Positions 4,963-37,322 of a stretch of DNA of 41,866 bases are shown in pieces. The stretch is from Alphaproteobacteria bacterium (GTDB taxonomy: Bacteria > Pseudomonadota > Alphaproteobacteria > Rickettsiales > JAIXRX01). The notes beneath the pieces were generated by a model. That model searched no databases. It was not told the DNA's origin and was given only the letters and a program-made list of their open reading frames with translations. The number at the start of each line of letters is the position of its first letter. The stretch's first letter is position 1. The position numbers and the translations under genes were made by a program. Location of the stretch: positions 1 through 41,866 of the forward strand of contig JAIXRX010000035.1 in NCBI GenBank assembly GCA_027485005.1, given 5' to 3'.

Positions 4963-5039
4963 CGGGGCGTAGCGCAGCCTGGTAGCGCGTCCGTCTGGGG
5001 GGCGGGAGGTCGCAGGTTCAAATCCTGTCGCCCCGACCA
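4963..5039 (+). tRNA. tRNA-Pro (anticodon GGG), CCA encoded
   Basis: A manual cloverleaf fits: acceptor CGGGGCG/CGCCCCG, D stem GCGC/GCGC, anticodon stem TCCGT/GCGGG with loop CTGGGGG, T stem GCAGG/CCTGT with loop TTCAAAT, discriminator A, then CCA. Confidence 0.93.
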
Positions 5040-5138: not shown

Positions 5139-5183
5139 TGTAGCGCGACACTTAGTTTGTCATGACACGACACTTAGTTTGTC
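5139..5183 (+). repeat. Phage right-end transposase-binding repeats (two tandem sites, 22-bp phasing)
   Basis: TGTAGCG-CGACACTTAGTTTGTC is followed by ATGACA-CGACACTTAGTTTGTC. The identical 16-nt core occurs at 5146-5161 and 5168-5183. Confidence 0.75.
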
Positions 5184-5200
5184 CTAAGTGCCTGCGCCAC

Positions 5201-15744: not shown

Positions 15745-17220
15745 TTAGAGGTAGAATTCCACCTTGCCCGCAAATACGCGGAACTGGTTGATGATGTCCG
15801 GCGGAATAATCGCATCAACACGGTTAGGATCGGTGACATTACGTTCCACCAATAAATCCGTTTTGAACTGCTCAAAATTTTCTACCAGGCCAACTTCTTC
15901 CCACAGCTTGAAGCGTGAGATGAGGAAATTACGGATGATAGATGGCGTTACAATAGCCTGACCTTCACCAAAGTTGGTGCCGTCGTTAGCGAGTTTGTAT
16001 CGTGGGAAACGCTGCAAAATGGCGGTGCGGGTATCGTAACGCAGATACGCTAGCGTGTGCATGCTTTCGATATCCAGATAGGACGGATCATCCACGCCTG
16101 CAGGGTTAAGACGATAGCTGGTGACCACGCGCTCTAAATAAACCGTGCCATCAGCACCCACGATAAACGTGCTGATCCCATTGTGCAGCAGGATATTGCG
16201 CTCTTCCAATGTAAAGCGATCAACAATGCTCGGAGCCATCATGCCTGGTAGCGGTAAACGCTGGACTGGGCGTGCCGGGTCAATCTGCAGATTGTATGCA
16301 CATACAGCGCCAAGCAGTGCTGCCATCTCATACGGCGGGGTTGGTGATTTATAAGCTCCCAGCGCACTGCCCTGAGGTGAATTGCGGCCCTGACCTTTGG
16401 TGACCAGGTTGGCATGGCTGGCGGAATAGGCGATATAATAATGTCCCTCCAGCATTTTCAACGGGCCAAAACGTTCGGCCATTTCTGTTTCCAGCTTCAC
16501 CAGGTTAGAGCTGTCGTTATAGGCGCAAACGAATGCTGTGTACCAATCATCACCAATTGCTGCAAAAACATCCGCAATGTCTGGGTTAGCGGTGCCGCCT
16601 GACATAGCGGTCAAAGTAAGTGTAATGCCAGCAGGAAGCTTTTCATCCTGATGGTAATTGACGCGCAAATCGATATCATTACCGTTCAAGCCTTTGTGGC
16701 GGGCAGTCAGATCAACCTCAAAGTTATTGACGCCATTCACAGCAGCTGTAATGGGCAACGATGTTTGCGCCGTAATGGCGGCCGCGATTGCAGTTGCCAC
16801 CTGAGCTGCGGTATTAGTGGCAGCTACCGCAACCTGCACTTGGCGACCAGCGATGTATAGGTTAATCGTGCCAGCGGCGGATGCAGGCCCGGTCACTGCA
16901 ATTTTACCTGTCGCCGCAACACCTGCACCATTGTCAGCCTGAGCAATGGCCCAAACTTCCAGGAAGCTGTTGGCAGTTTTGAAACGCTCAAGCATATGTG
17001 CCAATTGCGAACCTTGGCCAAAATATGCAATGGCCTGCGCGATGGAAGTAATCAGCAATGGCGTATTAGACGCTGCCGTACCGCTGGCGAGTTTTTGACC
17101 AATGACCAGGACACGGGTTGGGTATGCGTTCAAGCCGCGATTGGCTTTCTCATTGGAGATTTCAATATACGCACCAGGAACGCGCAGATTGATAGGAATC
17201 TGATTAAAGCTGATAGCCAT
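15745..17220 (-). CDS. Contractile tail sheath protein (Mu gpL-like)
   Basis: It is a 491-aa protein in the sheath position with sheath-like N-terminal (ISFNQIPINLRVPG) and C-terminal regions. Confidence 0.85.
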   Translation of the reverse strand: MAISFNQIPINLRVPGAYIEISNEKANRGLNAYPTRVLVIGQKLASGTAASNTPLLITSIAQAIAYFGQGSQLAHMLERFKTANSFLEVWAIAQADNGAGVAATGKIAVTGPASAAGTINLYIAGRQVQVAVAATNTAAQVATAIAAAITAQTSLPITAAVNGVNNFEVDLTARHKGLNGNDIDLRVNYHQDEKLPAGITLTLTAMSGGTANPDIADVFAAIGDDWYTAFVCAYNDSSNLVKLETEMAERFGPLKMLEGHYYIAYSASHANLVTKGQGRNSPQGSALGAYKSPTPPYEMAALLGAVCAYNLQIDPARPVQRLPLPGMMAPSIVDRFTLEERNILLHNGISTFIVGADGTVYLERVVTSYRLNPAGVDDPSYLDIESMHTLAYLRYDTRTAILQRFPRYKLANDGTNFGEGQAIVTPSIIRNFLISRFKLWEEVGLVENFEQFKTDLLVERNVTDPNRVDAIIPPDIINQFRVFAGKVEFYL

Positions 17221-17222
17221 GT

Positions 17223-17420
17223 TTAAGCATCCTTCTTAGTAGGTTTAACAGGGGTTTTAAGGGCGGGTTTTTGCTCGCCGACCATTACATCGCCATCATT
17301 GATGCGGCGTTGCCAGTAAGTGGTGGACTCAACCACCCGGCCTGCTTTGGGCAAAAAATCGTGCTGTTCAGGGTCAGTGACCAGCAGATCGTTTTGCGGG
17401 ATCACAAAAATTTTAGTCAT
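17223..17420 (-). CDS. Small conserved Mu-like protein (gp38/DUF2635-like)
   Basis: It is a 65-aa ORF tightly packed before the sheath gene, as in Mu-like phages. Confidence 0.55.
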   Translation of the reverse strand: MTKIFVIPQNDLLVTDPEQHDFLPKAGRVVESTTYWQRRINDGDVMVGEQKPALKTPVKPTKKDA

Positions 17421-18012
17421 CGATTGGCTCCTGGATGGGAAGGGTTACAAGGTCACGGGCATCTGCGTTTTCAGCAGGCAGGGGCGGTGTGACATTGCCG
17501 TGCAGTGGAATGTCCCAGGCGGGTGCCCATGTTTCAAAATCACCAAGCTCGGCCGTATTGGCTGGGGTCAGCACAAAGCTTGTTTCAAAGTTGATTGAGT
17601 AAACGCTGGCGAGCTGGGTGCCAGATAGGTCATTCATCAGCGGCTGGATGGAACGGGCAACCAATGGGGTAATCTCTAGCCCAAGGGTTTGACCGTTGAA
17701 TAATGCCAGCATATCCTGAATGATCTGATAGCTGCCCACTTTGCCATCAGAACCGTGGCGTGAAGTCTTCTCATTCCGCAGACTGGTGGCACAGCAAATG
17801 ACTGAGAAAGTACCCTTCATCTCAAAATCAAGACGGCCTTCCTTGGTAAGGTTTGCCCCATTGAATGCGAGAAGAACCGCAGGAAAATCGCGCACCAGAT
17901 TGCCGATAGCCTCTTCAAATTCTCCCGCATATGTTGCTACCTTGCGCAGTTTGTAACCAAGTGCGGTGGCGTTTATACGGCCAATCATGGCATTTTCGAT
18001 GGCAGAGATCAT
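17413..18012 (-). CDS. Mu gp37-like tail/neck protein (DUF1834-like)
   Basis: Synteny and size fit. The call is tentative. Confidence 0.6.
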   Translation of the reverse strand: MISAIENAMIGRINATALGYKLRKVATYAGEFEEAIGNLVRDFPAVLLAFNGANLTKEGRLDFEMKGTFSVICCATSLRNEKTSRHGSDGKVGSYQIIQDMLALFNGQTLGLEITPLVARSIQPLMNDLSGTQLASVYSINFETSFVLTPANTAELGDFETWAPAWDIPLHGNVTPPLPAENADARDLVTLPIQEPIDD

Positions 18013-18500
18013 TGTGCTATCCCTTCCAGCCAGTTTTCAGCAATTTTGTTGATGCCATTTTCTTCCAGCTTGCTGATTCCGAGAAACGGGCGCGCTGGGA
18101 TGGTCACTTTTTTCGCAAAAACCATGCCGCCATTATCCCCCATAAAGGCAAGATAGCGCGAATTCTTTGGACGAATCTCACCACCCCATTGATGGATGGC
18201 GGCATATTTGACATTGGTTCCCCACTCAACCAATGCGGCACTGGCCTGATAAACAAATGATGTTACCAACCGAGTACTCTTGGTCAGGGTCTTGCCCCCC
18301 TTCGTAATCGCCCGGCGGCTAGGACGCCATTTGATGCCCTCAGCCGTTTCTTGATCAAGAAAGTGCTGCTGGGTTGTGCTCACGCCATACGCGCCAATGG
18401 ATTCCAGTAGCGCTTTGCGCTCATCAGGTGATTGGATGCGTTCCAGTGTTTTAAAAAGGGATTTTGCGCCTTCATAGCGGAGACTGATGGTCATCACCAT
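18009..18500 (-). CDS. Virion morphogenesis protein (Mu gpG / P2 gpS-like tail completion family)
   Basis: Family-like features are present (AIHQWGG..., RPFLGIS). Confidence 0.7.
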   Translation of the reverse strand: MVMTISLRYEGAKSLFKTLERIQSPDERKALLESIGAYGVSTTQQHFLDQETAEGIKWRPSRRAITKGGKTLTKSTRLVTSFVYQASAALVEWGTNVKYAAIHQWGGEIRPKNSRYLAFMGDNGGMVFAKKVTIPARPFLGISKLEENGINKIAENWLEGIAQ

Positions 18501-20830: not shown

Positions 20831-21943
20831 TTATGCTTGCGACAGTTTCTTTGCGGTCGCCTTAAAGTCTTGAGCAGACACACCCAGCTGGTTTGCGACT
20901 GACATTTGCACGTCATCCAAGCCTGCCTGAACAGCCTCAGCAGAAGCAGTGGCGAGCTTTGTTGCTCCACCCACAACAACAGCGCCCTTGACATATTTTG
21001 CAAAGCCTTGCGGGTCTTTCTGTGCATAATCCAGCGCCCAATCCTTGTTGCCCGGCGTCACTTTGCCTGCAGCAATAGCTGCATCTACAGATGCCGTGGC
21101 CTTGGCAAGGCTGGTTTCACCTTCGACGGCCGCCACACGCTCTTGCAGCGCCTGCACTTCTTCGATAGGCACATATTTGGTTGGATCAGGGCGAGTTGCT
21201 GATGCGGTGGCTTTAGCGCTAGCCTTCATTTTACTGGCCACCTCTTTCTTAATTTCACCAGCAATATATCCATCAACTGCCTCAACGATTGCCTCAGGCG
21301 TTGCTGCATCAGCTGGTGCATCTACTGCTTCTTTTACGGCATCTACCGAGCCTTTAAGCGTCGTTACAGCCGCAATAATTGCATCATCAGATACCGCAGA
21401 TGAACCCTCTGCCGCCGCGAGGCCCAGCAGAGCAATAAGTTGTGCCTTCAAATCTTCCATGTTGTTCTCCGATTGGTTGGTTAAAAAAGTGTTTCGAGCA
21501 GATGCCACGGCTGGCATCTCGAAATTGGGGTCATTGGTGAGACTGATACGATCAATACGCGTCACCTGGCCTTGTTTAGTGTGCCAGAAGGTGGGCGAAA
21601 TGTAGCGGTATTCCTTGTTTTTAAGCTGTTCCAGTGCGGGCGGCGTCCATTCTACCTGCGCCCAGACACTTCCATCTTCTCGCGCTTCCAACGCCTTTAC
21701 CCAGCCTGCCGCACGGCGCTCGACGCCAGGGGCGGCAACGTCGGTGACGTGATCGCGGTCAACAGCCATTTGCACCAACGGACGCAGGGAGGCCGCCACT
21801 ACCGCCTTGGCATCGCTCAGGTGATATGGCCCACGGCCGTCTTTCCCGACAGTGGTGCCAGCCGGAAAAACCTTAATCCACCCATCGGATGCACCGACAG
21901 GCAGAAGAACAGAAGCAATGGTTTTGGTCGTGGAATGTGTCAT
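20831..21943 (-). CDS. Head maturation protease / scaffold (Mu gpI-like)
   Basis: The N-terminal Mu-I features (FPAGTTVGKDGRGPYHL, ISPTF, SLTNDPNF) are followed by an Ala-rich helical scaffold-like C-terminus. Confidence 0.85.
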   Translation of the reverse strand: MTHSTTKTIASVLLPVGASDGWIKVFPAGTTVGKDGRGPYHLSDAKAVVAASLRPLVQMAVDRDHVTDVAAPGVERRAAGWVKALEAREDGSVWAQVEWTPPALEQLKNKEYRYISPTFWHTKQGQVTRIDRISLTNDPNFEMPAVASARNTFLTNQSENNMEDLKAQLIALLGLAAAEGSSAVSDDAIIAAVTTLKGSVDAVKEAVDAPADAATPEAIVEAVDGYIAGEIKKEVASKMKASAKATASATRPDPTKYVPIEEVQALQERVAAVEGETSLAKATASVDAAIAAGKVTPGNKDWALDYAQKDPQGFAKYVKGAVVVGGATKLATASAEAVQAGLDDVQMSVANQLGVSAQDFKATAKKLSQA

Positions 21944-21978
21944 GCCGCCTAATTTAGGGGGGCTTAAGACACTTGGGC

Positions 21979-21998
21979 ATTGTAGCTATAACTACAAT
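21979..21998 (-). promoter_or_regulatory. Late-promoter activator dyad ATTGTAG-N6-CTACAAT (P_I candidate)
   Basis: The 7-bp arms are perfect, and the dyad is followed by GCC and then exactly 32 nt to the gpI ATG. The same element with the same geometry occurs at 29092-29111. Confidence 0.6.
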
Positions 21999-22219
21999 GG
22001 ATAGAGATGCGGCAGGATTCGGTTTTCACGCGCACGCGGCATGGGCGTACTTACCCGCACATACTTAACCCCGCAATAAGGCCATTTAATGCGATTCAAT
22101 TTTAGCCATCTAACCCTTTTGCACCCCCATATAGCTACACACCCTAAGATGGCGCTAAAAGTGCCCTTAAAATCGCTTTGCCCTAAAAGTTGATTTTGGG
22201 GTCGAATCAGGCTATATTG

Positions 22220-22266
22220 AAAAACAGATGACTGACTGGCTGACACCCCAACCTCCAAGGTCATCT
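22220..22266 (-). terminator. Candidate terminator after gene F
   Basis: On the minus strand, AGATGAC (22266-22260) pairs with GTCATCT (22232-22226) and is followed by GTTTTTC. The loop is 27 nt, so the terminator is weak. Confidence 0.35.
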
Positions 22267-22301
22267 CAATGCAGTCAGGTGGGATGTGTCGTGACTGCTT
22301 T

Positions 22302-23558
22302 TTATTCCTCCTCTGTCCGTCGATACACCATAGAGCCTTGGCGCTGCTTCTGGAGGTATCCTTTTTTGGTTTGAAATGTGGTGACGCCAGCCCAGCCATC
22401 TTTGCCCGTTTCAAACGCCACCAGCGCTTGCTGCTTGTCGTCACCAACCTGCAATCTGGTCAGATAGCGGCGGCGTAAAACTTTACGGCCGTCACTTAGC
22501 ATTTCCCAATATTCCCATATCTCATCCGGTTTCTTTAGAGCGGCCGCCAGGAGTAAAAGATATTTATGGCGATTGCTCTTTTGCACCTTCCAATTACCCT
22601 GGGCATTTTTGAAAAGGGAATCAGAGATCACCAGATTCTCACCAGCGACATCCGTAAATATCTTGCTCTTGCCGATCTCCGCATCAAACTCTTTCAGGAA
22701 GCGATTGACATACTCAGGGTCACTCAGTCCATCTGGCAGGATCATGTTGGTGGCGGCTGGGCGCATACGGGGCATAGGCACCTTTGCGGCTGGCCCTTGG
22801 TATGGAACGCCAAGCGGCGCATCGAGCGGTGGTGGCGTCAGTGCCTTCATACGAGCGCGGCCTGCGTTGTAATTAAAACCGGGAGTTATACCTTGCGGCA
22901 CAGTCATGGTTTCGCCCGTGCGCGAATTAAAATAGCGGCGAGGCATCCCCACAGGGGAGTGCACACTGACGCTTAAGCCTAATCGCTTCACATCATCTTC
23001 GGTCAATTGTTGCACCCAGCAGCGACAGCCCCAACCATTTGGCGGATAGTGTTCATCCCAGAACGGATGATCGACAGGCAAGACAGTATTGTGCCAGGCG
23101 CGGTGTTCGGGTCGGGTGGCACCATCCATCACAGCAACATAGCGTAGATATGGAAACGCTTTCTTTGTGCGCTGAATTCCTTCCCAGCGTCCAGCTGCAT
23201 AGCTGGTACGCATGTTGGTTTCAAAGATAGTTTTGAGACGGCGCGGACTGCCGAGCTGGACTTCCTTTTCCTTGCCCGTCTGCGGATCAATCATGTTTTT
23301 ACGGCCCCACCATCCTTTTTCCTGTAAGATGGGAGTGAGCTTCTTTTGGAAATCCGCCAGCGTTTCGCCGTTAGCGATAGCATCATCCATCGCAGCCCGG
23401 ATATCCTGCAGCACATCCTGCTTGGTGGCCTTAGCTACGGTGAATGAATAGGCATGAACTTCGCCCATCATCTCCCGATGATCAAAGGTTTCCTGGTAGC
23501 CTTTCTTGCGGAAGAAATCGATAGCCTGCTCTGGTGGGAGTGCGCGTAGCTCGGCCAT
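22302..23558 (-). CDS. Head morphogenesis protein (Mu gpF / SPP1 gp7 family)
   Basis: The MuF signature is present (RPEHRAWHNTVLPVDHPFWDEHYPPNGWGCRCWV). Confidence 0.9.
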   Translation of the reverse strand: MAELRALPPEQAIDFFRKKGYQETFDHREMMGEVHAYSFTVAKATKQDVLQDIRAAMDDAIANGETLADFQKKLTPILQEKGWWGRKNMIDPQTGKEKEVQLGSPRRLKTIFETNMRTSYAAGRWEGIQRTKKAFPYLRYVAVMDGATRPEHRAWHNTVLPVDHPFWDEHYPPNGWGCRCWVQQLTEDDVKRLGLSVSVHSPVGMPRRYFNSRTGETMTVPQGITPGFNYNAGRARMKALTPPPLDAPLGVPYQGPAAKVPMPRMRPAATNMILPDGLSDPEYVNRFLKEFDAEIGKSKIFTDVAGENLVISDSLFKNAQGNWKVQKSNRHKYLLLLAAALKKPDEIWEYWEMLSDGRKVLRRRYLTRLQVGDDKQQALVAFETGKDGWAGVTTFQTKKGYLQKQRQGSMVYRRTEEE

Positions 23559-28490: not shown

Positions 28491-29056
28491 ATGCGAACCT
28501 CCACTTTGCGGCGGTTTATCAGCCCTTTGCTAATTCTTTTGTTGCGGGCGGGCACAGCACATTGACCAGTGGTATCGCCTTTTCCCTTGGGTGCTACCTC
28601 GCATATCCATCGGTTCATCTGCATGCAGGCAGCTTCATATTGCCCCTGGTTAAGCAGGCGAATAAGGGTGGAGGTTTGCATTGCGCCTATGCCCACGTTG
28701 TACGCCCAACTGATAATGGCAGCCTTCATCGTTTCAGGGATTGGCACTTTGACAGCGCGCTCAACCGCTCGCTTAAATACACCCAAATCACCATTAAGCA
28801 GCTTGTCGCATTCTGGCTGTGTCAGCGTCTGACCTGGACGAGCGGTGGCGGTATGCCCATAGCAGATTGTATCAATGCTGGCCGTGTCTTTGTAGGTGGA
28901 GAGACTCAAACCCTCCAGCGTCATCAGCATAGCCAGTGCTATACCTGCAGCGCTACCTCCTGAAAGCATGGCCACAGACAGCGATACTTTCCCCGCGCAG
29001 CAATGAAAGAGCTGACGGCATAATTGGAGAAATTTAAAAGCATTTACATGTGGCAT
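28472..29056 (-). CDS. Endolysin, T4-lysozyme-like (GH24) with SAR-type N-terminal domain
   Basis: The catalytic context LEGLSLSTYKDTASIDTICYGHT (E-D-T) is preceded by a weakly hydrophobic Gly/Ala-rich segment (LSGGSAAGIALAMLM). Confidence 0.85.
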   Translation of the reverse strand: MPHVNAFKFLQLCRQLFHCCAGKVSLSVAMLSGGSAAGIALAMLMTLEGLSLSTYKDTASIDTICYGHTATARPGQTLTQPECDKLLNGDLGVFKRAVERAVKVPIPETMKAAIISWAYNVGIGAMQTSTLIRLLNQGQYEAACMQMNRWICEVAPKGKGDTTGQCAVPARNKRISKGLINRRKVEVRICLHDI

Positions 29057-29091
29057 AAACGCGATGTTACGCGCTCACGCGAAGGCATGGC

Positions 29092-29111
29092 ATTGTAGCG
29101 GTAGCTACAAT
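29092..29111 (-). promoter_or_regulatory. Late-promoter activator dyad ATTGTAG-N6-CTACAAT (P_lys candidate)
   Basis: The 7-bp arms are perfect, and the dyad is followed by GCC and then exactly 32 nt to the endolysin ATG. It lies in the 81-bp gap right after the Mor-like gene. Confidence 0.6.
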
Positions 29112-29137
29112 TTCAATAATAACAGGGGCGGGTTATT

Positions 29138-29512
29138 CTAAAACAGATCGTATTGATCTTTAGCAGCGGAGGCTTTTATGACCCGATAAACCACGCTACG
29201 GTCGGTGCCGATGATACGAGCAATCCGGTTAATCGGCACCCCATCATTATACATACGCAGAATGCGGGCATTGCGGCTGGGCCGCACTGGCACGGTCATC
29301 ACCATACCACCCCATATATCAGACAAGCGCTTTGCCGCCTCTAGGCCAATGCAATACGCAATTGGGCCGCTCTCTGTTGCCCGCAGCGGGATAGAAATAG
29401 CTGCCCCACCAAAATCGACTGACAGCTGCTCGAGCGCATCGTCACCGATCAACATACGCAGTCCATCGGTGGTTGGATTATCTGGTAAATCAAGGTGATC
29501 GTAATCAGCCAT
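29138..29512 (-). CDS. Mor/C-family transcriptional activator
   Basis: The C-terminal HTH (RNARILRMYNDGVPINRIARIIGTDRSVVYRVIK) is characteristic of Mu Mor/C. I chose the start at 29512, 1 nt after the preceding stop. Confidence 0.85.
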   Translation of the reverse strand: MADYDHLDLPDNPTTDGLRMLIGDDALEQLSVDFGGAAISIPLRATESGPIAYCIGLEAAKRLSDIWGGMVMTVPVRPSRNARILRMYNDGVPINRIARIIGTDRSVVYRVIKASAAKDQYDLF

Positions 29513-29513
29513 C

Positions 29514-30203
29514 TTAGTTACCTGCAGCCATTTGTGCACGGCATTGAACGCCGAGGTCTTCGATGGTTTTATCCAGGTCAGCTATATCCATAAATTCTGG
29601 TTGAAAATCTATCGCCTTACCAAGCAAGCGATATTGCGCATAGATTGTCGCTGCCTTTGCCGCGATAGCGCCGTAACTCACATCAGCTGGGCGGCTGTCA
29701 ATACCACGCATCACGCGGGCGCGCATAACGGTATCAATCATGGCAGCATCTGGATTCATCCAGCCGATACGGTTTAGCCAGCCCAGCAACCCACGGATAA
29801 CGGCATCAATTTGATGGCTGCGCATCCATTGTATTTTTTCTACCTTTGCCATGCGTAAGCAATAGGCCTCCAGATTTTTCTCAGAGCCGTCATGAATAGC
29901 GCCAAGGTGGTAAAGGTTCAACCAAAGCGCCCGCACCCGTTTGATCTGTGGATCGTTTGGCAAAAGACGCGGCCCGGCGCGGAAGGTGGTTGTTTTGAAA
30001 CCGAGGCGTTCAAACTCTTTGAGCACCGCTTCCAGTTCTGCGCCGGACATATCCTTGGTGCTTTCTTTCCCGGTGATGCGCACCAGCAAGGCACGATAGC
30101 TTTCATCCACCATGCAAAGCTTTGATTTGCCAATGTGGATTTTAGCAATCATGCTTTTGCGATTGCTATCGGAAGCCGCGCCGAAACTCATCACCTTTCC
30201 CAT
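29514..30203 (-). CDS. GemA-like protein (Mu gp16, DUF1018)
   Basis: The sequence IAKIHIGKSKLCMVDESYRALLVRITGKESTKDMSGAELEAVLKEFERLGF is typical of DUF1018. Confidence 0.75.
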   Translation of the reverse strand: MGKVMSFGAASDSNRKSMIAKIHIGKSKLCMVDESYRALLVRITGKESTKDMSGAELEAVLKEFERLGFKTTTFRAGPRLLPNDPQIKRVRALWLNLYHLGAIHDGSEKNLEAYCLRMAKVEKIQWMRSHQIDAVIRGLLGWLNRIGWMNPDAAMIDTVMRARVMRGIDSRPADVSYGAIAAKAATIYAQYRLLGKAIDFQPEFMDIADLDKTIEDLGVQCRAQMAAGN

Positions 30204-36189: not shown

Positions 36190-36380
36190 GAACTCTCCAT
36201 TATGACGGGTTACAGCCCGTTTTTTTGGCGTTGTTGAATTAAGCTAACTAAATGTGTGTTCGCACAATAAAGCGGATATAGCAACATTAAAAAGCGATGT
36301 TTTGCGAATGTCCGTTTTTTTATACGAATTGATGTGACTTTTCGGACACGCCCTGATAGAGGGCGGGCAAAGTATTGGAT
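36190..36380. promoter_or_regulatory. Divergent repressor/early control region (operators, Pe/Pc; probable transposition enhancer by analogy to Mu)
   Basis: This AT-rich 190-bp gap lies between the divergent ner and repressor genes. It contains the inverted repeats TGTG-N4-CACA and AACAT-N10-ATGTT and a hairpin plus T7 run at 36205-36227. Confidence 0.5.
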
Positions 36381-37175
36381 ATGATGGTGTTTAAAGACCG
36401 ACTAAAAATAGCTATGAAAGAGGAATCTGTACTTGGCTTCGCAAAAAAAAGCGGGCTGAGTGAGGGGGCTATTCGGCAATACCTCAAAGGTAGTGAGCCG
36501 GGGCTTGATAAGGTCATAGCAATTGCTGCTGCAGCCGGGGTATCAGCGGCATGGTTAGCCACAGGCGAAGGTAAGCCTGACTCTAGCTATCGCTCGTCTG
36601 CTTTGGCGGATTCTTCTGTGCCCTCGCAATTCAGGGCACAACCATTGCGTAGTAAAGATGGTGAAGAAATGTATCTCTCAATGGCTGCTGCCAATACTTC
36701 TACCATCAAACTGGATAAATCCTCCTATGAGGCAAAAATAAACGAGGTTGATGACACCTCTTCTGTAGCCGTTCCATTACTCAGTATTCATGCGAGTGCA
36801 GGTGGTGGCGCAGCTGTGCTAAGTGAAGAAGGTGATGACTATATACGGTTCAGCGCACGCATGTTGCGAGGCCTTGGCTTGGAACCGCTCCACACATTTG
36901 TAATGCCAGTGCTAGGGGACAGCATGGAGCCGCGTATCCGATCAGGCGAGCTGATGCTTTGTAGTCGTGCGCCGCAACACCTCAAAGGAGCGGACGGCAC
37001 TTACATCGTGCGCCTGGAAGGTGATATATTGGTCAAACGCATCCAGCGACTGCCGGGCGGCAAGGTCGTTGTCTCCTCTGAAAACACAGGTTACAGCCCC
37101 TTTGAAATCATCTTAAATGACGGGGTAGATTTTGCCATTCTAGGCATGGTGCTGGTGGTGTTTCGCAAGGTTTAG
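36381..37175 (+). CDS. CI/LexA-like repressor (XRE HTH plus S24 autopeptidase domain)
   Basis: The N-terminal HTH (GFAKKSGLSEGAIRQYLKG) and the C-terminal S24 motifs GDSMEP (Ser) and VKRIQ (Lys) are present. The track start at 36375 is TTG; the ATG at 36381 or 36384 is more likely. Confidence 0.85.
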   Translation: MMVFKDRLKIAMKEESVLGFAKKSGLSEGAIRQYLKGSEPGLDKVIAIAAAAGVSAAWLATGEGKPDSSYRSSALADSSVPSQFRAQPLRSKDGEEMYLSMAAANTSTIKLDKSSYEAKINEVDDTSSVAVPLLSIHASAGGGAAVLSEEGDDYIRFSARMLRGLGLEPLHTFVMPVLGDSMEPRIRSGELMLCSRAPQHLKGADGTYIVRLEGDILVKRIQRLPGGKVVVSSENTGYSPFEIILNDGVDFAILGMVLVVFRKV

Positions 37176-37199
37176 ATTGCCATCTAAGAGTTCAAGTTA

Positions 37200-37215
37200 G
37201 TGTTTTGCAAAACAC
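37200..37215. repeat. Perfect 16-bp palindrome GTGTTTTGCAAAACAC
   Basis: The sequence is fully self-complementary and lies 25 nt after the repressor stop. Confidence 0.6.
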
Positions 37216-37300
37216 CATAATGCAGACAATAATTATTATATTACTGTGCGTTACATAACTTGAACGCTATCGTGTAACTTGAACGCCAAACGACCCAAAA

Positions 37301-37322
37301 ACACGACACTTAGTTTGTCATG
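37301..37322 (+). repeat. Internal copy of the end-repeat (candidate L3 site), same orientation as the right-end sites
   Basis: In ACACGACACTTAGTTTGTCATG, 37301-37319 is 19/19 identical to 5165-5183, and 37304-37322 is 19/19 identical to 5146-5164. Confidence 0.7.

What the first reader, a model, noticed from the sequence alone, without database searches (positions are those of the whole stretch)
21999..22301. ORF-poor, repeat-rich gap between gpF and gpI at the accessory slot that holds anti-CRISPR operons in Pseudomonas Mu-like phages
Coding in the phage is otherwise almost gap-free, yet 358 bp separate gene F from gene I. The only long ORF there (22264-21992, 91 aa) lacks an RBS, is rich in W, C and R, and runs through the promoter dyad.

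On the minus strand the segment contains four TTAGGG-type units: TTTTAGGGCA, TTTTAAGGGCA, TTTTAGCGCCA and TCTTAGGGTG (22188-22140). It also contains three GGGTTAAG-type units: AAGGGTTAGAT, GGGGTTAAGTATG and GCGGGTAAGTACG (22119-22046).

Established knowledge: in JBD30/D3112-group phages the acr-aca operon lies directly upstream of the protease/scaffold gene. This is therefore a recognised insertion hotspot for anti-defence cargo. Here it may hold a non-coding RNA, a protein-binding repeat array or the decayed remnant of a cargo gene.
Basis: partly seen in the sequence, partly recalled or inferred. Interest (0 to 1): 0.6.

Follow-up and report, generated by a model that had tools for sequence, protein, structure and literature searches.

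The report
Antisense small-RNA gene between Mu-like head genes
The 358-bp "empty" gap in this Mu-like prophage is conserved control DNA, not a dead cargo gene: it holds an apparently undescribed ~80-nt small-RNA gene on the opposite strand, a stretch of helically phased DNA, and the late promoter of the head-protease gene.

Summary
gpF (MuF+PBECR2) ends at 22302 and gpI starts at 21943, leaving 358 bp with no credible ORF.

The gap is not a decayed insert. Relatives whose gpI is only about 50% identical keep a 346-386 bp gap with the same blocks in the same order. I read three modules.

1. **Small-RNA gene on the window + strand, convergent with gpF.**
   - -35 TTGATT 22190-95, 17 nt spacer, -10 TATATT 22213-18, TSS about 22225.
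   - Two hairpins, then an intrinsic terminator whose U-tract overlaps the gpF stop.
   - Promoter spacing, both hairpins (19 of 22 pairs with compensatory changes) and the terminator are conserved. Model matches sit at the same place in 11 loci that were not used to build the model.
   - G-U versus A-C counts favour the + strand. Rfam has no match.

2. **Phased A/T tracts at 22040-22190.** The phasing recurs in most relatives, as in the right arm of phage Mu's strong gyrase site, which lies in the homologous gap. Its function is inferred only.

3. **Late promoter P_I.** Activator dyad 21998-21979, -10 TAAATT, then ATG 7 nt later, predicting a leaderless mRNA. A twin stands before the endolysin gene.

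There is no anti-CRISPR cargo.

The parts
22302..23558 (-). gpF: MuF minor head protein with a C-terminal PBECR2 (predicted BECR-fold RNase) domain. Its stop codon TAA is at 22304-22302.
   Evidence: Pfam PF04233 E 5e-23 and PF18810 E 5e-32; phrog_220.
22190..22218 (+). Sigma-70-type promoter of the small RNA: -35 TTGATT 22190-22195, 17-nt spacer, -10 TATATT 22213-22218.
   Evidence: Consensus scan. TTGnnn-17-nAnnA[T/C] is kept at the same place in all 8 seed loci while the spacer sequence diverges. An automatic TTGnnn-N16-18-nAnnn[T/C] match ending 1-8 nt before the model match is present in 15 of the 19 loci that carry the RNA, including non-seed loci L011, L090, L013, L174, L170, L010 and L126.
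22225..22307 (+). Predicted ~83-nt small RNA. 5' hairpin 22226-22266 with a C-rich internal loop (CCCCAACCUCCAAGG). Terminator hairpin GCAGUCA 22271-22277 / UGACUGC 22292-22298. U-tract 22299-22306, overlapping the gpF stop codon.
   Evidence: RNAalifold: 22 pairs, 16 with compensatory changes in 8 sequences. Covariance model R1 matches at the same place and strand in 11 non-seed loci. 93.9% of cells paired against 65.7% when shuffled. Nine non-seed rows are 93.6% paired against 39-51% when slid, with G-U 20 versus A-C 1. No Rfam match.
22140..22189 (+). On the + strand they are A-tracts (CTAAAA / TTAAAA / CTAAAAG) at 11-16 nt spacing, ending at the -35 hexamer. This is UP-element-like, phased DNA.
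   Evidence: Sequence. One A-tract (TAAAA) about 20 nt upstream of the -35 is kept in relatives. Periodicity.
22040..22189 (.). Helically phased A/T-rich and G/C-rich segment, predicted to be bent or to wrap. It lies between the two divergent promoters and is a candidate counterpart of the Mu strong gyrase site arm.
   Evidence: 99.2nd percentile of the contig. The Mu SGS right arm used as a control reaches the 98-99th percentile. Relatives: at or above the 98th percentile in 22 of 23 gaps, locus maximum in 13. Intergenic control p about 0.06.
22085..22103 (+). Conserved DNA motif TTTAA-N5-TTCAATTTT (AAAATTGAA on the phage strand).
   Evidence: AAAATTGAA is invariant in six sequences (window, L003-L006, L009) and is also present in L016. 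The two halves are 4-5 or 15 nt apart in different relatives, a difference of one helical turn. That argues for recognition as DNA, not as RNA.
22024..22043 (.). GC-rich alternating purine-pyrimidine near-palindrome (CGCGTGCGCG here; GGTCGCGCGCGCGACC and CATGCGCGCATG in relatives).
   Evidence: Alignments A1 and A4. Function unknown.
21979..21998 (-). Perfect dyad ATTGTAG-N6-CTACAAT, the predicted binding site of the phage late activator at promoter P_I.
   Evidence: The only other exact copy in the contig is at 29111-29092, between the activator gene and the endolysin gene. It is conserved in relatives before both gpI and the endolysin.
21941..21956 (-). -10 hexamer TAAATT (21956-21951), 7 nt, then the gpI start codon ATG (21943-21941). 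This predicts a leaderless gpI mRNA with no Shine-Dalgarno sequence.
   Evidence: The same geometry (dyad, 19 nt, TAnnnT, 7 nt, ATG) holds at both promoters here and in relatives.
20831..21943 (-). gpI, head maturation protease/scaffold.
   Evidence: PF10123 E 2e-65; phrog_328.
29138..29539 (-). Mor/C-family late transcriptional activator, the presumed reader of the dyad.
   Evidence: phrog_836 'late transcriptional activator' E 1e-11. Pfam Mor 24.2 bits, just under its 24.9 cut-off.

Best explanation
The gpF-gpI gap is a conserved non-coding control region made of three modules.

**A. Small-RNA gene on the strand opposite to the late genes.**
- A sigma-70-type promoter (22190-22218) starts transcription at about 22225.
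- The ~80-nt RNA folds into a 5' hairpin with a C-rich internal loop, followed by an intrinsic terminator. The terminator's U-tract is encoded by the A-rich last codons and stop codon of gpF.
- Inferred mechanism: the RNA is exactly complementary to the stretch of late mRNA that follows the gpF stop. No conserved sense-strand terminator stands there. The RNA would therefore pair with read-through lys-to-F transcripts, as lambda OOP RNA does with cII mRNA and as RatA or SR4 do with their convergent toxin mRNAs. This would limit or process the mRNA for the MuF-PBECR2 protein, for example when expression leaks in the lysogen.

**B. Phased A/T tracts (22040-22189), plus the motif TTTAA-N-TTCAATTTT.**
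- These lie between two divergent promoters.
- I read the segment as bent or wrapping DNA. It would serve as an UP-like upstream element of the small-RNA promoter.
- It may also be the counterpart of the Mu strong gyrase site, which lies in the homologous gap.

**C. Late promoter P_I.**
- The Mor/C-type activator binds the dyad at 21998-21979, centred at about -45.
- RNA polymerase uses TAAATT as its -10 hexamer and starts at or 1 nt before the ATG, giving a leaderless gpI mRNA.

**Shown:** conservation, covariation, strand bias, promoter and terminator geometry, periodicity.
**Inferred:** transcription itself, the target of the RNA, any gyrase binding, and activator dependence.
For: **Gap conservation.** Four relatives with 47-52% identical gpI keep gaps of 346-386 bp. 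Conserved blocks stand in the same order.

**Small RNA.**
- The promoter hexamers sit exactly 17 nt apart in all 8 seed loci, while the spacer sequence between them diverges.
- An automatic TTGnnn-N16-18-nAnnn[T/C] match ending 1-8 nt before the model match is present in 15 of the 19 loci that carry the RNA. My rough estimate is that such a match arises by chance in about 3-4% of loci.
- 22 pairs are predicted, 16 of them with compensatory changes.
- On 13 rows, 93.9% of cells pair against 65.7% when shuffled. 19 of 22 pairs show double changes. The covariation score is 0.83 against about 0.1 when the partners are slid.
- The model's best or near-best match falls within about 10 nt of the gpF stop, on the antisense strand, in non-seed loci L011, L090, L013, L174, L170/171, L180, L034, L010, L030 and L126. 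L014 also matches, but its contig lacks gpF.
- Nine of these non-seed rows are 93.6% paired, with G-U 20 against A-C 1. The seed rows give G-U 20 against A-C 4. A G-U pair on one strand becomes an A-C mismatch on the other, so this bias points to the + strand.
- U-tracts follow the terminator in nearly all loci.
- An antisense-strand terminator abuts the gpF stop in 28 of 45 loci with PBECR-type gpF. The sense strand has none in those 45. Other gpF types have one in 6 of 111 loci, and random windows in 27 of 1020.

**Phased DNA.**. The Mu gyrase cut site lies 20 bp past the stop of G, inside the 196-bp G-I gap.

**P_I.** There are two exact dyads in 41.9 kb, before lys and before I, with identical spacing to the -10 hexamer and the ATG. 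The same twins occur in relatives' genomes 7.1 kb apart. The activator gene lies directly upstream of the lys copy.
Against:
- The single-sequence fold of the window's RNA is not better than shuffles (z = -0.96). The support is comparative only.
- The alignments used for pair counts were fitted to the model, which inflates the percentage paired.
- The overlap with the gpF coding sequence is only about 6 nt. A cis-antisense role therefore needs read-through of the late mRNA, and that is not shown. In the window (but not in relatives) the sense-strand hairpin is followed by GTTTTTC, which could stop some read-through.
- No convincing trans target was found.
- The periodicity of the window's own gap is only at about the 94th percentile of ORF-free stretches. 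Bent DNA upstream of promoters is common, so the link to the strong gyrase site is weak.
- Only two late-promoter dyads were found, whereas Mu has four late promoters.
- The association between PBECR-type gpF and the antisense terminator is not corrected for shared ancestry.
Confidence: 0.6

Rival explanations
1. The two hairpins act on the phage-sense strand, as the 3' end (terminator or stabiliser) of the lys-to-F late transcript. This would match Mu, where the lys transcript ends between G and I. On this reading there is no antisense RNA.
For: The hairpins fold equally well on the sense strand. From memory (Zha, Zhao and Howe 1994), Mu has a lys-transcript terminator in the G-I gap, and a hairpin plus T-run is visible there. 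In the window the second hairpin is followed by GTTTTTC.
Against: Relatives have no U-tract on the sense side. A sense-strand terminator near the gpF stop was found in 0 of 45 PBECR-type loci, against 28 of 45 on the antisense strand. G-U pairs outnumber A-C pairs 20:4 and 20:1 in favour of the antisense strand. A promoter with fixed 17-nt spacing is conserved exactly one RNA length away on the antisense strand.
Confidence: 0.12
2. The central segment (about 22040-22190) is a strong gyrase site like that of Mu. Gyrase would wrap the phased DNA at the centre of the prophage and help synapse the ends for replicative transposition. This can coexist with the best explanation.
For: - The position is homologous. 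Mu's cut site lies in the gap just before gene I, at 17880 of 36717 bp, or 49%. Here the gap lies about 47% from the left end of a prophage spanning roughly 5.17-37.3 kb.
- A/T periodicity of 10-11.5 bp matches that of the Mu SGS right arm and recurs in 22 of 23 relatives' gaps.
- The E. coli gyrase motif consists of a central part flanked by arms with 10.75-bp GC periodicity, and Mu SGS scores high on it (PMC6379681).
- The right arm with its bending repeats is the essential part (PMC10052514).
Against: - There is no sequence similarity to Mu SGS.
- The gyrase weight matrix could not be applied, because its supplementary sheet is cut in the held copy.
- 5.7% of ORF-free stretches in the same genome are as periodic.
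- Curved DNA upstream of promoters is common.
- Of the Mu-like prophage candidates tested, only the site from the closely related E. coli O157:H7 Sakai prophage could replace Mu's (PMC10052514).
Confidence: 0.3
3. The gap is the decayed remnant of an accessory (anti-defence) gene, or still encodes the 90-aa ORF.
For: The slot carries small accessory genes in JBD30 and RC1. A 90-aa ORF is open.
Against: - The ORF has no significant family match and no conserved frame in relatives.
- The ORF runs through the late-promoter dyad.
- Gap length and the order of motifs are conserved among relatives with about 50% identical flanking proteins. Decaying DNA would not keep this.
- Conservation is in short blocks separated by indels that are not multiples of three.
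Confidence: 0.03

Closest known systems
Lambda OOP RNA (antisense to the 3' end of cII), and the convergent antisense RNAs of type I toxin-antitoxin pairs (RatA/txpA, SR4/bsrG). This comparison is from memory.
   Same: A short (~80 nt), structured RNA with its own constitutive-type promoter. It is transcribed convergently with a protein gene and ends at an intrinsic terminator at or within the 3' end of that gene. It is fully complementary to the mRNA region there.
   Different: No sequence or Rfam relationship. The overlap with the coding sequence is only about 6 nt, and the rest matches the 3' untranslated stretch. Pairing, RNase III cleavage and any effect on gpF are untested. It sits in the late structural operon of a transposable phage.
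Phage Mu late promoter P_I and its activator C (Mor/C family).
   Same: The position is the same, directly before gene I, with a second copy before lys. A dyad-symmetric activator site replaces a -35 hexamer and is centred at about -45. From memory, Mu C is centred at about -43.5. The activator gene lies just upstream of lys and after gemA.
   Different: The dyad sequence differs (ATTGTAG-N6-CTACAAT). Only two copies were found. The predicted transcripts are leaderless, with the ATG 7 nt after the -10 hexamer at both promoters and in relatives. I do not recall this being described for Mu.
Phage Mu strong gyrase site (SGS).
   Same: It lies in the non-coding gap just upstream of gene I, near the genome centre. 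It has helically phased A/T tracts alternating with GC-rich segments.
   Different: There is no sequence similarity and no cleavage data. In this lineage gene G has moved away, so the gap follows F.
The acr-aca operon slot of Pseudomonas casadabanviruses (JBD30, D3112 group).
   Same: The same inter-gene position upstream of the protease/scaffold gene.
   Different: There are no protein-coding genes here and no HTH aca gene. The content is conserved regulatory DNA, not variable cargo.

Membership tests
Independently transcribed small RNA gene (phage cis-antisense type, OOP-like) | Its own promoter at the right distance | tested here: met
   TTGnnn-17-nAnnA[T/C] in all 8 seed loci with a diverged spacer. 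An automatic match is present in 15 of the 19 loci that carry the RNA.
Independently transcribed small RNA gene (phage cis-antisense type, OOP-like) | Intrinsic terminator (GC stem plus U-tract) on the same strand | tested here: met
   Present in 28 of 45 PBECR-type loci on the antisense strand and 0 of 45 on the sense strand.
Independently transcribed small RNA gene (phage cis-antisense type, OOP-like) | Conserved secondary structure supported by compensatory changes | tested here: met
   19 of 22 pairs show double changes. 93.9% paired against 65.7% when shuffled. Non-seed rows are 93.6% paired.
Independently transcribed small RNA gene (phage cis-antisense type, OOP-like) | A discrete transcript is detected | not testable with these tools
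Independently transcribed small RNA gene (phage cis-antisense type, OOP-like) | Membership of a curated RNA family | tested here: not met
   No Rfam 15 match at the gathering threshold or at E up to 10.
Mu-type C/Mor-dependent late promoter | The phage encodes a Mor/C-family activator | tested here: met
   phrog_836 E 1e-11. Pfam Mor 24.2 bits against a 24.9 cut-off.
Mu-type C/Mor-dependent late promoter | A shared dyad site upstream of a -10 hexamer, with no -35, at several late operons | tested here: met
   Two exact copies with identical geometry, before lys and before I, and again in relatives. No third or fourth copy was found.
Mu-type C/Mor-dependent late promoter | Transcription depends on the activator | not testable with these tools
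   Needs a reporter assay.
Mu strong gyrase site | Central position in the gap preceding gene I | tested here: met
   About 47% from the left end, against 49% in Mu.
Mu strong gyrase site | An arm with helically phased bending signals | tested here: inconclusive
   99th percentile of the contig, and conserved in relatives. However, p is about 0.06 against ORF-free controls.
Mu strong gyrase site | Strong gyrase cleavage, and a requirement for fast replicative transposition | not testable with these tools
   Biochemical and genetic assays are needed. The published weight matrix is not in the held supplement.
acr-aca accessory operon | Small protein genes, including an HTH aca gene, in the slot | tested here: not met
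   No conserved ORF and no significant family match.

The most novel reading that the evidence does not exclude
The small RNA may be an RNA-based immunity or antitoxin factor for the predicted RNase domain (PBECR2) fused to MuF. MuF-toxin genes are usually followed by a small immunity ORF: 89% of 191 toxin-bearing muf genes in PMC5576092. Here that place holds a structured RNA instead. Its loop sequences are conserved, which a purely antisense RNA would not need. An antisense terminator abutting the gpF stop is found in 28 of 45 PBECR-type MuF loci, against 6 of 111 loci with other MuF types. The RNA would either silence the gpF mRNA, as in type I systems, or bind the RNase domain, as in type III systems.
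Probability: 0.12. Interest if true: 0.8.

Novelty: new member of a known kind. Interest (0 to 1): 0.55.

Why it matters
- **A new phage RNA to test.** I found no small regulatory RNA reported for a transposable (Mu-like) phage: one full-text paper search turned up none and Rfam has no match. A conserved, covariation-supported RNA gene inside the late head operon would add a layer of control, or of self-protection against the MuF-fused RNase, that nobody has looked for. It is directly testable by a Northern blot on a cultured lysogen, Micavibrio aeruginosavorus HCB189.
- **The centre of Mu-like genomes.** Helically phased DNA recurs in the F-I gaps of the 23 Mu-like prophage relatives tested. 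This bears on whether a central gyrase site is general among transposable phages. PMC5977238 proposes a central SGS for the Pseudomonas phage Ab30 and leaves open whether the arrangement is shared by other transposable phages.
- **Annotation.** The result warns against reading every gap at an anti-CRISPR hotspot as lost cargo. It also shows two late operons predicted to be translated from leaderless mRNAs.

Tried and rejected
- DNA similarity of the gap to 50,697 phage records: none. Similarity to 60 related genomes: none.
- A single-protein gpI scan of viral contigs found nothing. An alignment query was needed.
- Rfam at a permissive threshold: nothing.
- The whole-gap RNA fold is not better than shuffles (z = -1.04). 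The gap is therefore not one large structured RNA.
- Target search for the C-rich loop against all ORF starts of the contig gave only generic Shine-Dalgarno pairings.
- blastn-short of the RNA against the whole MAG gave only chance matches of 16 nt or fewer, and no CRISPR array with a similar repeat. An RNA anti-CRISPR reading gets no support.
- I asked whether TTCAATTTT is a transposase-type end site. It is not enriched in the contig and not clustered at prophage ends in relatives. Rejected.
- The left-end repeat GCGTTCAAGTTA has no copy in the gap at up to 3 mismatches.
- The model R1 finds nothing at the F stop in Mu, JBD30, RC1 or Pelagibaca phage vB_PeaS-P1. Mu's own G-I gap shows no antisense promoter or terminator by the simple scan.
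- The published gyrase weight matrix could not be used, because the supplementary sheet DS10 is cut.
- The Oram and Pato papers on prophage SGS sequences are not held.

Full report
**Setting.** The window is a whole 41.9-kb contig of a 1.58-Mb, 75%-complete MAG. It carries a Mu-like prophage on the minus strand. The genes, in phage order:

| Gene | Coordinates |
|---|---|
| CI-like repressor | 36375-37175 (+) |
| Ner-like regulator | 36189-35881 |
| Transposase A | 35012-32802 |
| Transposition protein B | 32776-32027 |
| GemA | 30218-29514 |
| 133-aa late activator | 29539-29138 |
| Endolysin | 29056-28472 |
| Large terminase | 26716-25139 |
| Portal | 25129-23558 |
| gpF | 23558-22302 |
| gpI | 21943-20831 |
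| Major head protein gpT | 20341-19445 |
| gpG homologue (Phage_tail_S), relocated | 18500-18009 |

gpF is a MuF protein with a C-terminal PBECR2 domain (E 5e-32). Iyer et al. predict this domain family to be RNases carried in the virion (PMC5512222).

**The observation.**
- The gap 22301-21944 is 358 bp.
- The ORF has no significant family match and is not kept in relatives.
- Tandem Repeats Finder reports nothing, and the repeat finder reports only two-copy families.

**The gap is conserved, not decayed.**
- The nearest gpI homologues are 45-57% identical.
- Four of their contigs have the same gene order and F-I gaps of 346-386 bp without called genes. One contig has a 36-aa call.
- The gaps align into short conserved blocks separated by variable stretches and indels.
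- Across about 100 Mu-like loci fetched with a gpI profile, an ORF-poor F-I gap of 220-600 bp is common. Some loci carry 1-2.5 kb of inserted genes instead.
- So the slot is a cargo hotspot in some lineages: JBD30, RC1. It is not one here.

**Module C, the late promoter.**
- The perfect dyad ATTGTAG-N6-CTACAAT occurs exactly twice in the contig.
- One copy is at 21998-21979, before gpI. The other is at 29111-29092, in the 81-bp gap between the activator gene and the endolysin gene.
- In both copies the dyad is followed by GCC, 19 nt, a TAnnnT hexamer (TAAATT or TAACAT), 7 nt and the ATG.
- Relatives keep this geometry before gpI. In two relatives' genomes they also keep it before the endolysin, 7.1 kb upstream in one of them, as here.
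- No Shine-Dalgarno sequence fits between the -10 hexamer and the ATG.
- I infer that both late operons are transcribed from activator-dependent promoters with the dyad centred at about -45, and are translated from leaderless mRNAs.
- The position and logic match Mu's P_lys and P_I with activator C. That comparison is from memory.
I reached this reading independently and extended it to relatives.

**Module A, the small RNA.**
- *Structure.* Just past the gpF stop, two hairpins show many compensatory changes.
- *Three observations place them on the window + strand:*
  1. A sigma-70-type promoter (TTGATT, 17 nt, TATATT) lies one RNA length away. In all eight close relatives TTGnnn and nAnnA[T/C] stand exactly 17 nt apart at the aligned position, although the spacer sequence is not conserved.
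  2. On this strand the second hairpin is followed by a U-tract, which is provided by the A-rich end of gpF. On the sense strand no U-tract follows either hairpin in relatives.
  3. G-U pairs on the + strand would be A-C mismatches on the other strand. G-U outnumbers A-C by 20 to 4.
- *Search with a model.* A covariance model of the ~85-nt unit finds one copy in the MAG.
- In non-seed loci L011, L090, L013, L174, L170/171, L180, L034, L010, L030 and L126, the best or near-best hit lies within about 10 nt of the gpF stop on the antisense strand. L014 also matches, but its contig lacks gpF.
- Most of these loci also have a 17-nt-spaced promoter and a U-tract.
- *Pair counts.* 93.9% of cells pair against 65.7% in shuffles. 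19 of 22 pairs show double changes. The covariation score is 0.83 against about 0.1 when partners are slid.
- The nine non-seed rows alone are 93.6% paired, with G-U 20 and A-C 1. These alignments are model-fitted, which flatters the numbers. The positional coincidence and the promoter do not depend on that.
- *Known families and phages.* Rfam has nothing. Mu, JBD30, RC1 and vB_PeaS-P1 lack the RNA.
- *Association with the gpF type.* A simple terminator detector finds an antisense-strand terminator abutting the gpF stop in 28 of 45 non-redundant loci with PBECR-type gpF, and a sense-strand one in none. Other gpF types give 6 of 111, and random windows 27 of 1020. This is not corrected for shared ancestry.

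**What the RNA might do.**
- It has no long complementarity elsewhere in the MAG. A scan of ORF starts gave nothing specific.
- It is by construction complementary to any late transcript that reads past gpF, and relatives have no sense-strand terminator there.
- I therefore favour a cis-antisense role on the lys-to-F mRNA, like OOP/cII or RatA/txpA.
- The conserved loop sequences (CCGACGCCCCA-like and GGGUAGC-like) and the link with the RNase-bearing MuF leave room for an immunity-like role. MuF toxins are normally followed by a small immunity ORF (PMC5576092).
- All of this is inference.

- On the + strand the TTAGGG-type units are A-tracts that end at the -35 hexamer.
- The segment 22040-22190 has a 10-11.5-bp A/T periodicity at the 99.2nd percentile of the contig.
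- The right arm of the Mu strong gyrase site was analysed in the same way as a positive control. It reaches the 98-99th percentile.
- In the F-I gaps of 23 relatives the signal is at or above the 98th percentile in 22. It is the locus maximum in 13, including loci that lack the RNA.
- Against 88 ORF-free stretches of the same MAG, the window's value is reached by 5.7%. The window alone is therefore only suggestive. Several relatives exceed the highest control.
- Mu's gyrase cut site lies 20 bp past the stop of G, in the homologous 196-bp gap, at 49% of the genome. Here the gap is at about 47%.
- Gyrase sites are defined by arms with 10.75-bp GC periodicity (PMC6379681), and the bending right arm is the essential part in Mu (PMC10052514).
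- This makes a gyrase-site reading reasonable but unproven. Promoter-upstream curvature is the simpler alternative.
- The motif TTTAA-N-TTCAATTTT has its halves 4-5 or 15 nt apart in different relatives. That fits a protein site on one face of the DNA helix.

**Limits.**
- The gyrase matrix could not be used, and two key SGS papers are not held.
- Relatives are not independent samples.
- The prophage ends are approximate.

**Verdict.** The cargo-remnant idea is rejected. The most interesting product is a candidate new small-RNA family of Mu-like prophages.

Noticed in passing
window 29040-29115 (- strand): The endolysin gene has the same dyad, 19 nt, TAACAT, 7 nt, ATG arrangement as gpI. The lysis operon is therefore also predicted to be leaderless. 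The same holds in two relatives' genomes.
   Followed up: yes
window 37188-37286, and 37300-37319 with 5143-5185: Three copies of GCGTTCAAGTTA (two direct, one inverted) lie beyond the repressor gene and look like left-end transposase sites. Separately, ACAAACTAAGTGTCG(T/C)G occurs once near the left end and twice near the right end, in direct orientation. That is odd for a Mu-type element with 5-bp target duplications. I found no inverted copy of the left-end motif at the right end.
   Followed up: partly
window 18009-18500 (- strand): The gpG homologue (Phage_tail_S) does not sit between F and I as in Mu and JBD30. It lies after the Gp36-like gene, and the same is true in all close relatives.
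   Followed up: partly
window 22302-22700 (gpF residues 286-413): The C-terminal domain of gpF is PBECR2, a predicted BECR-fold RNase. Among about 156 non-redundant Mu-like loci, an antisense-strand terminator at the gpF stop goes with this domain type (28 of 45 against 6 of 111).
   Followed up: partly
window 22130-22148: There is a partial copy of one arm of the late-promoter dyad (GTGTAGCTATA), about 150 bp upstream of the full dyad. A GCTAY block is conserved at this place in relatives. It may be an auxiliary half-site.
   Followed up: no
window 22148-22170 (+ strand) and the aligned places in relatives: A small GC-rich hairpin-like dyad with covarying arms (GCCCC-tgtac-GGGGC, GGCG...CGCC, GCCG...CGGC) is followed by TTAAAA. 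It lies 25-45 nt upstream of the small-RNA -35 hexamer. It is not a canonical terminator on either strand.
   Followed up: no
L264 (Rhodobacter phage RC1, record 16229-18297): Four small hypothetical genes, one of them on the opposite strand, sit between G and I. This is a real cargo-filled version of the slot in a cultured alphaproteobacterial Mu-like phage.
   Followed up: no
window 4963-5039: tRNA-Pro(GGG) lies about 100 bp outside the apparent right end of the prophage.
   Followed up: no
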